A stretch of DNA of 64,000 bases from an uncultured Gammaproteobacteria bacterium (lineage in GTDB: Bacteria; Pseudomonadota; Gammaproteobacteria; UBA6002), in contig CAWFQC010000024.1 of assembly GCA_963817645.1 (NCBI GenBank), positions 102,256-166,255 on the forward strand, read 5' to 3'. Made by a program: the position numbers. This document shows, piece by piece, positions 48,901 to 51,900 of this stretch. The number at the start of each line of letters is the position of its first letter. The stretch's first letter is position 1.

Positions 48901-51900
48901 CTGCAAGTGCTACTATGAGGCTGTTTGCTCACTAAAAGACGTCAGTTCGACGAATCGAAGCAGAGGTAGAGTGATTAGGGCCCCTGCCATGATCTGCCTA
49001 ATATTAGGCGGCATCCCTATGCTGAACTTCCTTCTTAATTTTGCTGCCCAATTTCATTTTGGTAATTTTTAAGTCGTAAGCATTTTGTAGTTTTAACCAA
49101 AACTCAGCACTTGTTCCAAAAAATACCGAAAGTCTCAACGCTGTGTCAGTTGTTATCGAGCGTCGACCATTTAATATTTCAGTGATTCTATTTGTAGGGA
49201 CATGAAGTTTTTCCGCAAATTTATTTGCAGATAATTTCAGCTCTTCTAGCTCATCTTTTAAAATTTCACCCGGATGTATGGGTCGCATTTTATTCATTGT
49301 CGTCACTCCTAATGATAATCAACTATCTCAACGTCATGGGCTTCATCATTTATCCATTTAAAACATATACGCCACTGAAGGTTAATTCGTATGCTAAATT
49401 GTCCCTTCTTATTACCGCGCAATGCTTCAAAATGGTTGCTTGGTAAATATTTCAAATCATCCAAACAAGTTGCCTCATCGAGAATTTGCAGTCTTCGCTC
49501 AGCTTGTTTTTGAAATACTTGCCATTGTTTTACTCTTTTTCCTAGATAGAAATCTTCAGTAGCTTTATTTTTAAATGTCCTAATCATAAAATAATTATAA
49601 TAGATTTTACGCTTTACGTAAAACATAAGTTTTGTCCAATGAATGCCGGTAAAAATTTGCTAAGTAAAATGCATGCTTATCCGAAAAGTACCTGTAGATT
49701 AGTTTTTATGATATTCTTCCCTGTTTTTTAGAGCATGGAGTATGTGTGGCATTTGCGTCCCGATTGAGACACAATTAATAATAGTACTAAGAGGGTTATA
49801 TATTATGAGCAAAACAGCTTATGTCAGAGCAAGGATAGAGCCTGAATTAAAAATGAAAGCGGAGGCTATATTCGATGAGCTTGGTGTTACAGCCACTCAG
49901 GTCATTACTATGCTCTATAAACAAGTTTCAAGAAAACATGAGATACCGCTTGATCTAAATTTACCTAATAGAGAGACAGAAAAAGCTATTGATGAGGCTA
50001 AGAAAGGTCAAGATATTGTAACTTGCAAAGATGCTGACGATTTGTTTGATAAATTGGGTATATGATGCTTACCCCTATCTACAAAAAGAAATTTGAAAGA
50101 GATTTAAAGCGGGTATCTAAGCGTGGAAAGTCTATTGAAAAAATAAAGACTGTAATGCGCCGATTAATTGAAGAAAAAACTTTGGAGGCAAAATATTGCG
50201 ATCATCCATTAAGAGGCAAACATGTAGACACAAGGGAGTGTCACATTGAGCCGGATTGGCTTTTAATCTATATGCTTCAAAATAATTCCAGATTTTTACA
50301 CTTAATGGCAGTGCCACTACGTCGTCCCACTGCCATTAAGTTAAGCAATCTGTCGTCCGGTGATGGTTTGATCACGGAATCTAGGGAAGTGCCCCTATCC
50401 TGGATCCCGCGAACAAGTCGCGGGACGACGTAGTGAGAGCTAATTGACGACAGGCCCTAGCTCTGGCAGTCACTCTGATCTATTTGAATAGTAAGTTCGC
50501 ATTTTACATAACGGCAGGGTTAAAAAAGCAAATAGTCAACACTATAACTATAGTTTAAACTTCAACATCAAACTATTTGCGTTAGAATCATCAAACTTCT
50601 CATATAATGAATCATGTCGTTGCCTTTCATGAGTAACCCAAATTTCTTGCACCCATTCATTTTCAAACGATATGTCTCCCTCTGGAGACATAATTTCAGT
50701 AAGTAAGCTAAACACACATTGTGCATATGTCTCACTTGATGCTCTCGATTCTGCTTTGGGATAGCCAGAGACGTTTCTAATAGAGATACCCTTTTCAACG
50801 GTAATAGTTTGCTCACACATGGTTCCGGCAACATTGCCCCCGTTACTTGCTGCAAGATCAACTACAACAGCATTGTGTGGTAAAAATCTTAAACTTTCTT
50901 CATCAATTAATAAAGGCGCTTTTTTTCCAGGTGTCCTTGCTGCTGTAACTACAAGTGTTGCTTCAATCAGATATGGCTTAATAAAATCTATCTGTTGTTC
51001 AGCAGTGGGTAAGACGTGATATGTTATTCCAGCAGCCTCTAACTCAGATCGGTGATTCTCTTTTCTACCAAGCAACTGAACTGGAATCTTATATTTTAGT
51101 CCCTCAAACGCAGCGCTCATTCCCGCGGCCCCAGTACCAATGACTGTTAGCTTTGCTGGTTTCTCTCCTTGATAATGTTTTAAGGCATCATGAAATGCCA
51201 ATCTACCCGCAATACGGCTCATTGCTGCCTGTGCGTTTTTTGAATCAAGGATAGAGATGCTTTTAAATAAATCAAATGATAGCGTTGTTAACCCTAACTC
51301 TTGCCAAGTAGCAATATGATTATCAGCCACGAATGGAAATAAAAATCCTAACATAGCCGTGTTTTCATGAAAATGTTCATTTTCCAGGAGCTCTCGTTCT
51401 TTGCTCGGACGGAGAACTCGTACAATAAACGTATTGGCAGGAAATCCTGATGCTGTTAAGGAAAATAGTTTCGCACCCGCATTTATATATTCAATATTTG
51501 TGAATCCTGCATTCAATCCGGCATCTGCTTCAACGAGTACTCGATAGCCTTTATCTACTAAGATGCCTACGATTTGAGGTGTTAAAGCAACACGTTTTTC
51601 TTCGTAGAGGGTTTCCCTAACTACAAGAATTTGTTTGAAATGCATTATTGCCTCTTTAGCGCTGTTTACGCCTCAAATTATCATCGATAGCACAAATCAA
51701 AACAGAATGAGAATGAGAATGAGAATGAGAATGAGAATGAGAATGAGACCAGGATAATTGTCTCGACAGTGTTGAGACAATGTCTCGATCAGGAAATGAT
51801 TTGGCAAACTTGATCAATATCTCACTTATTCTTTTAATCCCCCATTTCTTAATTCCCTAGGCAATGCAAAGACAATATTCTCTTCACTGCCTTTAAGTTC

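What the first reader, a model, noticed from the sequence alone, without database searches (positions are those of the whole stretch)
50062..50470. Repeat-A insertion rewrites the C-terminus of a YafQ-like toxin, and a repeat terminus supplies the FGase stop
The dinJ-yafQ-like module is intact up to residue 80 of the toxin. After that the ORF continues into repeat-A sequence for 43 unrelated codons, removing the conserved C-terminal His/Phe of YafQ-type RNases. This probably inactivates the toxin, leaving an orphan antitoxin or a domesticated regulator. At 30575-30600 the last six codons and stop of the FGase-family gene are likewise encoded by the repeat terminus.

This shows the repeats actively remodel coding sequences.
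Basis: partly seen in the sequence, partly recalled or inferred. Interest (0 to 1): 0.55.

Follow-up and report, generated by a model that had tools for sequence, protein, structure and literature searches.

The report
Transposon fragment splits a toxin gene
A 160-base piece of a small non-coding transposon (a MITE) sits inside a YafQ-type toxin gene of an uncultured Legionellales-like bacterium, cutting off the catalytic end of the toxin. This is a clean but ordinary example of mobile DNA killing a toxin-antitoxin module.

Summary
ORF 50062-50433 matches YafQ up to codon 79. It then runs 44 codons through a 160-nt copy of repeat-A (50300-50459), which is 95-97% identical to other copies in the window.

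New evidence settles the matter. The missing YafQ end, SGSHSDLFE-stop, lies directly after the repeat at 50462-50491, shifted one reading frame. Deleting exactly 160 nt restores an 88-aa protein that matches the whole Pfam YafQ profile. Among the listed homologues of 694 found, only this genome's own protein carries the tail. The closest dinJ-yafQ operon (83% nt identity) has no repeat.

The displaced part holds the equivalents of E. coli YafQ R83, H87 and F91. H87A abolishes cleavage, so the toxin is very probably dead.

The FGase claim also holds. The repeat end at 30585-30605 encodes LGPVVN-stop. It only replaces a tail that varies in length and sequence among homologues, so the change is cosmetic.

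Repeat-A is a MITE. Its 22-nt end is identical to the ends of 914-954-bp IS5-family insertion sequences (IS427-group type) in soil metagenomes. The window holds no such transposase. The yafQ copy has one canonical end and no target duplication.

MITEs that rewrite gene ends are already described in Coxiella. This is a new member of a known kind.

The parts
49805..50065 (+). dinJ/relB-type antitoxin gene (86 aa), intact
   Evidence: Pfam RelB, 65.6 bits, profile positions 2-82 of 82. It has the same length as the RelB of the closest homologous operon, L114.
50062..50299 (+). Native 5' part of the yafQ-type toxin gene: codons 1-79 plus the first base of codon 80
   Evidence: Pfam YafQ_toxin, 87.9 bits, profile positions 4-77 of 88. 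All invariant residues of the homologue alignment are present, including the equivalents of E. coli H50, H63 and D67.
50300..50459 (.). Inserted 160-nt repeat-A (MITE) copy. The right end is canonical (terminus 50439-50460). The left end is an internal hairpin module (ACTTAATGGCAGTG...) rather than a terminus.
   Evidence: It is 95-97% identical to copies at 30060-30175, 59813-59930 and 2955-3057. Its RNA fold is -77.7 kcal/mol, z = -6.2. Removing it restores the yafQ frame.
50062..50433 (+). Chimeric ORF as it now stands (123 aa): YafQ residues 1-79 followed by 44 repeat-encoded codons, with the stop inside the repeat
   Evidence: It is in the public protein collection only as P0001, a single member from one 620,637-bp contig.
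50460..50491 (+). Displaced native yafQ 3' end: (C)GC TCT GGC AGT CAC TCT GAT CTA TTT GAA TAG, encoding (R)SGSHSDLFE-stop, in the +1 frame relative to the 5' part
   Evidence: Translation. Homologues end ...RTGSHSDLFE/K. 26 of 32 nt are identical to L114. H at 50471-50473 and F at 50483-50485 correspond to E. coli H87 and F91.
59728..60133 (.). The only complete repeat-A element in the window: 406 nt, with long terminal inverted repeats, intergenic
   Evidence: Its DNA fold pairs the two ends, -110.7 kcal/mol, z = -13. Both termini are found. It has no long ORF and no Pfam hit.
29985..30605 (.). Cluster of nested and rearranged repeat-A pieces with a single canonical terminus (30584-30605), abutting the FGase gene
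30585..31316 (-). FGase-family gene. The last six codons (LGPVVN) and the stop are encoded by the repeat terminus at 30585-30605.
   Evidence: Pfam FGase, 67.9 bits. The ORF is listed. Homologue C-termini after SFxxAL vary from 0 to 12 residues.
2861..3058 (.). Another repeat-A fragment with no canonical terminus. It is intergenic and starts right after the stop of ORF 1723-2862.

Best explanation
A non-autonomous transposon of the repeat-A family landed in the 3' part of an intact yafQ-type toxin gene. Repeat-A is a MITE that carries the terminal inverted repeats of an IS5-family, IS427-group-type insertion sequence wrapped around Legionellales-type hairpin repeats.

The 160 nt now present split the gene between the codons for ...NNSRFL and RSGSHSDLFE. 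Because 160 is not a multiple of three, translation runs on through 44 repeat-encoded codons to a stop inside the element. The true C-terminus is left untranslated in another frame. That C-terminus carries the arginine, the general-acid histidine and the stacking phenylalanine, equivalent to E. coli R83, H87 and F91.

The result is a catalytically dead toxin next to an intact DinJ-like antitoxin, which is the usual first step in the decay of a toxin-antitoxin module.

At the FGase gene the same element end sits at the very 3' end and simply supplies a new six-codon tail and stop.

Shown: the insertion, its boundaries to within one base, the displaced 3' end, and the kinship of the element ends with IS5-family insertion sequences.

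Inferred: loss of toxicity, mobilisation in trans by an IS427-type transposase, and the recency of the event.
For: - The YafQ profile match stops at position 77 of 88 in the present ORF. It becomes 4-88 of 88, and the score rises from 87.9 to 100.7 bits, once 50300-50459 is removed.
- SGSHSDLFE-stop lies at 50462-50491, matching the ...RTGSHSDLFE/K ends of homologues.
- The reconstructed operon is 83% identical to the repeat-free L114 operon over 530 columns. Homology resumes right after the insert.
- The tail is found only in this genome's own protein. All other listed hits (119 of the 694 found) are 71-107 aa, mostly 88-90 aa, and cover 67% of the query or less.
- An independent Logan assembly (L001) reproduces the right junction at 100% identity.
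- The repeat copies are 95-97% identical to one another.
- The terminus GCTAATTGACGACAGGCCCTAG is found exactly in 35 metagenome contigs. About 22 of them carry DUF4096 plus DDE_Tnp_1 ORFs (NCBIfam transpos_IS5_3) inside 914-954-bp elements bounded by this repeat. 177-bp MITEs with the same ends also occur.
- The IS427 group is described as about 830-865 bp with two frameshifted ORFs and a 2-bp direct repeat (PMC3281130).
- E. coli H87A gives no mRNA cleavage, and F91A restores growth (PMC4652777).
Against: - The yafQ copy has only one canonical terminus and no target-site duplication. A textbook cut-and-paste insertion with a TA duplication does not reproduce the junctions without an extra 1-nt change or a later deletion.
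- The reconstruction is one residue shorter than most homologues, so the exact native junction is uncertain by about one codon.
- No cognate transposase lies in the 64-kb window.
- Loss of toxicity was not measured.
- No repeat-free allele of this same gene was found.
Confidence: 0.85

Rival explanations
1. The long tail is a native, lineage-specific C-terminal extension of a YafQ variant, and the similarity to the repeat is secondary.
For: The ORF is open for 123 codons, and it is recorded as one protein (P0001) with a YafQ Pfam label in the collection searched.
Against: The true C-terminus lies out of frame right behind the repeat. The tail DNA is 95-97% identical to intergenic repeat copies. 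No other listed homologue among the 694 found has it.
Confidence: 0.01
2. Assembly artefact: the contig was joined wrongly through a repeat, and yafQ is intact in the real genome.
For: The source is a metagenome-derived assembly. The Logan contig L001 breaks inside the repeat at 50424. Repeats are classic misjoin points.
Against: A misjoin would not place the two halves of one gene on the two sides of a repeat so that they fit to the base. L001 independently carries the repeat terminus fused to the yafQ 3' remnant and the downstream gene.
Confidence: 0.03
3. The piece did not arrive by transposition. It came by recombination, template switching or gene conversion between hairpin-rich repeat modules, in the manner of REP/BIME mosaics. 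That would explain the single terminus and the missing duplication.
For: The left end of the copy is an internal hairpin module. Only one of the four repeat-A loci in the window has both termini. The internal hairpin GTCCCGCGRCTTGTYCGCGGGA is a Legionellales-wide short repeat, found in at least 112 stretches in other genomes that lack the rest of repeat-A.
Against: The right end is a perfect transposon terminus, ending exactly where gene homology resumes. The yafQ flanks share no homology with the repeat that could guide recombination.
Confidence: 0.15
4. The interrupted module is kept for a function: the non-toxic YafQ(1-79) fusion still binds DinJ and acts as a co-repressor or anti-addiction module, or the insertion can be reversed by excision.
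For: DinJ and the first 79 toxin codons show no other lesion. The 3' remnant is still intact.
Against: An intact state is equally expected from a recent insertion, given 95-97% copy identity. There is no evidence of conservation of the chimera in any other genome. The junctions show no duplication that would favour precise excision.
Confidence: 0.07

Closest known systems
E. coli DinJ-YafQ type II toxin-antitoxin system (RelE/ParE superfamily, Pfam PF15738 and PF04221)
   Same: The gene order is antitoxin then toxin, with overlapping stop and start. The DinJ/RelB match is full length. The H50, H63 and D67 equivalents are present. The reconstructed C-terminus has the F-x-R-x-G-x-H...LF motif.
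   Different: As encoded now, the toxin lacks the R83/H87/F91 segment. The module sits in a variable chromosomal spot between ispH and a pilin gene, which is empty or holds a Fic gene in relatives.
Coxiella burnetii QMITE1 and QMITE2 (Wachter et al. 2018, PMC5896051)
   Same: Both are MITEs in a Legionellales-type genome, 150-400 bp long, with hairpin-rich structure. QMITE copies overlap the 3' ends of many ORFs, and one supplies a 33-aa C-terminus to EnhC. The small versions lack terminal inverted repeats and direct repeats.
   Different: No sequence link was shown. The repeat-A peptides do not hit Pfam, including DUF1658, the family formed by QMITE1 peptides, and Rfam gives no hit. The repeat-A ends match an IS5/IS427-type insertion sequence. 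Here the insertion truncates a catalytic domain rather than only extending a tail.
IS5-family, IS427-group insertion sequences and their MITE derivatives
   Same: The 22-nt terminus is identical to that of 914-954-bp elements encoding DUF4096 and DDE_Tnp_1 ORFs (NCBIfam transpos_IS5_3). The ends are flanked by (C/T/G)TA...TAG, which fits a 2-bp TA duplication. 177-bp MITEs with the same ends exist.
   Different: The interior of repeat-A is unrelated to those insertion sequences and is built from Legionellales hairpin modules. No transposase is in the window. Most window copies have lost one or both ends.
Rickettsia palindromic elements (RPEs) inserted in genes
   Same: Both are palindromic repeats found inside protein-coding genes of an intracellular-type bacterium (from established knowledge).
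   Different: RPEs insert in frame and leave the host protein continuous. This insert is 160 nt, shifts the frame and ends the protein inside the element.

Membership tests
YafQ toxin (PF15738) of a DinJ-YafQ module | Sequence match to the YafQ profile above the curated cut-off | tested here: met
   87.9 bits against a cut-off of 30 for the present ORF, and 100.7 bits for the reconstruction.
YafQ toxin (PF15738) of a DinJ-YafQ module | Adjacent upstream DinJ/RelB-type antitoxin | tested here: met
   49805-50065 matches RelB profile positions 2-82 of 82. Its stop overlaps the toxin start.
YafQ toxin (PF15738) of a DinJ-YafQ module | Complete active site including the C-terminal general-acid His and stacking Phe (E. 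coli H87, F91) | tested here: not met
   The profile match ends at position 77 of 88. The H and F codons lie at 50471-50473 and 50483-50485, out of frame behind the insert. The present ORF is therefore a disrupted member (a pseudogene), not a working one.
YafQ toxin (PF15738) of a DinJ-YafQ module | Growth inhibition that is relieved by the antitoxin | not testable with these tools
   This needs expression assays.
MITE derived from an IS5-family (IS427-group-type) insertion sequence | Short, multicopy, and without coding capacity for a transposase | tested here: met
   Four repeat-A loci of 160-620 nt lie in 64 kb. Six-frame translation shows only short ORFs, with no Pfam hit.
MITE derived from an IS5-family (IS427-group-type) insertion sequence | Terminal inverted repeats | tested here: met
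   Element 59728-60133 has long paired ends. The yafQ copy itself has only one terminus.
MITE derived from an IS5-family (IS427-group-type) insertion sequence | Ends shared with an autonomous element that encodes the transposase | tested here: met
   The exact 22-nt terminus bounds elements of 914-954 bp that carry transpos_IS5_3 ORFs.
MITE derived from an IS5-family (IS427-group-type) insertion sequence | Target-site duplication (2 bp for the IS427 group) | tested here: inconclusive
   Complete elements are flanked by NTA...TAG, which fits a TA duplication. The yafQ copy shows no duplication, and a canonical TA model misfits by one base.
MITE derived from an IS5-family (IS427-group-type) insertion sequence | Cognate transposase present in the same genome | not testable with these tools
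   There is none in the window. The rest of the 620-kb contig and of the genome was not available.
Coxiella QMITE1/QMITE2 | Sequence similarity to QMITE consensus or DUF1658 peptides | tested here: not met
   No Pfam hit for any repeat-A peptide at E up to 10. No Rfam family hit. No direct nucleotide comparison was possible.
Rickettsia palindromic element-type in-frame insertion | Insert length a multiple of three, with the host reading frame continuing beyond it | tested here: not met
   The insert is 160 nt. The downstream gene part is in the +1 frame.

The most novel reading that the evidence does not exclude
Repeat-A may be a hybrid mobile element. It may have captured the exact 22-nt ends of an IS427-type insertion sequence that is otherwise seen in high-GC soil bacteria, and fused them to Legionellales-specific hairpin repeats. 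It may then spread mostly as one-ended pieces without target duplication.

The DinJ plus truncated-YafQ pair it created may be kept as a non-toxic regulator or anti-addiction module rather than simply decaying.
Probability: 0.08. Interest if true: 0.45.

Novelty: new member of a known kind. Interest (0 to 1): 0.25.

Why it matters
This is a tidy, base-resolved case of a MITE inactivating a toxin gene while sparing the antitoxin. That is the expected safe route for losing a toxin-antitoxin module.

It also shows that automatic annotation records such chimeras as ordinary YafQ proteins.

The link between the repeat ends and IS427-type insertion sequences gives a handle for annotating the repeat families of this uncultured Legionellales-like lineage.

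It does not open a new question.

Tried and rejected
- **Exact look-ups.** Exact-protein look-ups of the chimeric ORF, its 122-aa form, P0001 and DinJ found no contig on record. Only the neighbouring gene gave a short Logan contig.
- **Empty-site search.** A search for the repeat-free junction CCAGATTTTTACNCTCTGGCAGTCAC in metagenome contigs found nothing.
- **Relatives.** The nearest relatives, at 83% IspH identity or less, have no dinJ-yafQ at this site and no repeat-A terminus. No allelic comparison was therefore possible.
- **QMITE1 link.** A link via DUF1658 found no Pfam hit. Rfam gave no family in the whole window.
- **Canonical TA-duplication model for the yafQ copy.** I rejected this as it stands. 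It predicts either an out-of-frame native gene or an extra serine between the conserved R and G (reasoning).
- **GIY-YIG association.** The idea that the hairpin is tied to GIY-YIG nuclease genes found only 4 of about 113 loci.
- **Promoter and terminator scan.** The scan of 49600-50600 found nothing beyond chance.

Full report
**What is at the site.** On the + strand a dinJ/relB-type antitoxin gene (49805-50065, 86 aa) matches Pfam RelB over positions 2-82 of 82. Its stop overlaps the start of ORF 50062-50433 (123 aa). That ORF matches Pfam YafQ_toxin at 87.9 bits, but only over residues 6-81, which is profile positions 4-77 of 88. From 50300 onward the DNA is repeat-A. Segment 50320-50435 is 97% identical to 30060-30175. 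Segment 50322-50439 is 97% complementary to 59813-59930. Segment 50328-50430 is 95% identical to 2955-3057 in reverse. The 22-nt repeat terminus occurs four times in the window against 0.00 expected from shuffles.

**The decisive extra observation.** Directly after the repeat, at 50462-50491 and one frame over from the ORF, the sequence reads TCT GGC AGT CAC TCT GAT CTA TTT GAA TAG, which translates to SGSHSDLFE-stop. Homologues end ...FVRTGSHADLFK. The closest one, P0025, ends ...IIFIRTGSHSDLFE.
- Joining c(50299) to g(50460), which removes exactly 160 nt, gives ...NNSRFLRSGSHSDLFE-stop.
- This 88-aa protein matches the YafQ profile over positions 4-88 of 88 at 100.7 bits.
- It keeps the F-x-R-x-G-x-H spacing seen in all 16 aligned homologues, including E. 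coli YafQ.
- The reconstructed dinJ-yafQ operon is 83% identical over 530 columns to a repeat-free operon on metagenome contigs L114 and L115. The 3' remnant alone matches at 26 of 32 nt.

The reconstruction is one residue shorter than most homologues, in the turn before the last strand. The native junction is therefore certain only to within about one codon.

A search of 5.8 billion proteins found 694 YafQ relatives, of which the best 120 were listed. Only P0001 carries the tail. It is a single member from one 620,637-bp contig and is the window's own protein. All other listed hits are 71-107 aa, mostly 88-90 aa, and cover 67% of the query or less. The tail is not native.

**Misassembly is unlikely.** The two gene halves fit to the base across the repeat. 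An independent Logan assembly of run ERR11561019 (L001) is 100% identical to 50424-51733. It therefore carries the repeat terminus fused to the yafQ remnant and the downstream gene.

**Consequence for the toxin.** The alignment places the displaced arginine, histidine (50471-50473) and phenylalanine (50483-50485) at E. coli YafQ R83, H87 and F91. For E. coli YafQ, H87A abolishes mRNA cleavage, and both H87A and F91A restore growth. H87 is proposed as the general acid, and F91 is proposed to stack on the A-site nucleotide (PMC4652777). The N-terminal 79 residues carry no other lesion. All invariant columns are satisfied, including the H50, H63 and D67 equivalents. The insertion is the only visible defect, and it very probably kills the RNase. 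Loss of toxicity is inferred from homology and was not measured. The intact 3' remnant and the 95-97% identity among copies point to a fairly recent event.

**The FGase claim.** The ORF 30585-31316 (-) matches Pfam FGase at 67.9 bits and ends ...SFRNAL-LGPVVN-stop. The last six codons and the stop lie in 30585-30605. This is the element end CTAGGGCCTGTCGTCAATTAG read in frame 0. That end gives a stop at once in frame 1 and LGPVVN-stop in frame 0, so gene fusions into it tend to be short. In 14 homologues, the residues after the conserved SFxxAL vary in length (0-12) and in sequence. One homologue ends exactly at ...SFRQAL.

**What repeat-A is.**
- The one complete copy, 59728-60133 (406 nt), has long terminal inverted repeats that pair in a DNA fold (-110.7 kcal/mol, z = -13). 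It has no coding capacity.
- Its 22-nt end, GCTAATTGACGACAGGCCCTAG, occurs exactly in 35 metagenome contigs, mostly high-GC with an unrelated interior.
- In about 22 of these contigs the end bounds elements of 914-954 bp. These encode a DUF4096 ORF and a DDE_Tnp_1 ORF that hit NCBIfam transpos_IS5_3 above its cut-off. 177-bp MITEs with the same ends also occur.
- The interior of repeat-A is different. It contains the hairpin GTCCCGCGRCTTGTYCGCGGGA, which occurs in at least 112 stretches of Legionella, Coxiellaceae and related genomes that lack the rest of repeat-A.

Repeat-A is therefore best described as a MITE with IS427-type ends built around Legionellales hairpin repeats. No matching transposase lies in the window.

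**What does not fit neatly.**
- The yafQ copy has a canonical right end (50439-50460). Its left end is an internal hairpin module (ACTTAATGGCAGTG...), and there is no target duplication.
- A textbook insertion at a TA with a 2-bp duplication does not reproduce both junctions without a further 1-nt change or a deletion that removed the left end.
- Only one of the four repeat-A loci in the window has both ends.

Either copies are trimmed after insertion, or they spread by a one-ended or recombinational route. I could not decide between these possibilities.

**Genomic setting.** The window is core chromosome, with ileS, lspA, ispH, feoB, ptsP and rpsT. It comes from an uncultured gammaproteobacterium whose nearest IspH relatives, at 83% identity or less, are unnamed MAGs and Coxiellaceae. 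In two syntenic relatives the space between ispH and the pilin gene is empty or holds a Fic gene. Here it holds an AlaDH-like gene, dinJ-yafQ and higBA. The module therefore sits in a variable island. No repeat-free allele of this very gene was found.

**Comparison with what is known.** MITEs that overlap the 3' ends of genes and supply new C-termini are described in Coxiella burnetii. QMITE1 overlaps several genes by 2-50 bp, and QMITE2 provides 33 residues of EnhC (PMC5896051). I found no sequence link to those families. Unlike Rickettsia palindromic elements, this insert is not in frame. Inactivation of the toxin half of a toxin-antitoxin pair by mobile DNA is the expected safe path of decay.

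**Verdict.** It is a new member of a known kind, and I score its interest low to moderate.

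Noticed in passing
Loci L116-L150 (metagenome contigs); window 30584-30605, 50439-50460, 59728-59749, 60112-60133: The 22-nt repeat-A end is conserved to the base in 35 metagenome contigs, most of them high-GC and unrelated inside. There it bounds 914-954-bp IS5-family elements (IS427-group type) and 177-bp MITEs. The same transposon end is thus shared across very different bacteria.
   Followed up: yes
L144:1-1498: A Legionellales-like contig carries an IS110-family-looking transposase C-terminus (read by eye, not run against Pfam). 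It lies between two inverted halves of 'hairpin plus repeat-A terminus' (4-61 and 1329-1393). This recalls IS1111 inserting into the REP hairpin of Coxiella QMITE2.
   Followed up: partly
Loci L002-L113 (genome contigs): The hairpin GTCCCGCGRCTTGTYCGCGGGA occurs in at least 112 stretches across Legionella species, Coxiellaceae and related MAGs. It often occurs as inverted pairs 40-100 nt apart, without the rest of repeat-A.
   Followed up: partly
window 48641-48712 and 49638-49709: A 72-nt direct repeat (97% identical) brackets the higBA cassette and lies just upstream of dinJ. It may mark cassette boundaries in this toxin-antitoxin island.
   Followed up: no
window 20036-20144, 23148-23215, 37979-38083, 48139-48254, 53294-53413, 60205-60320: A second, unrelated palindromic repeat family of about 110 nt (GCTCTTCCGGAATT...TTTAAAAAAATCCCCC...) has six copies, all apparently between genes.
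   Followed up: no
window 22860-22904, 37654-37814, 48727-48917: A third repeat family (TTTGCCCTCACCCCAACCCTCTCCCGC... with its inverted partner) is present. One copy lies in the repeat-dense stretch 47900-49000, next to the toxin-antitoxin genes.
   Followed up: no
window 48281-51645 compared with L151 and L152: The interval between ispH and the pilin-like gene is a variable spot. It is empty in one relative and holds a Fic gene in another. Here it holds an AlaDH/PNT-like gene, dinJ-yafQ and higBA.
   Followed up: partly
window 60511-60657: Five or more tandem 21-nt units (7-codon repeats) lie inside the 594-aa ORF 60480-62264 (-), which has no NCBIfam match.
   Followed up: no
window 29938-29982; L145:914-1229, L016, L018, L078: In four Legionellales-like loci the hairpin follows the stop of a small GIY-YIG-like gene by 10-40 nt. 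The window has only a weak 15-aa fragment of such a gene end (WRDLYE-like, E = 0.39) at the edge of the repeat cluster.
   Followed up: partly
window 12606-12770 and 15923-16087: A 165-nt direct repeat at 95% identity, with copies 3.3 kb apart. Not examined.
   Followed up: no
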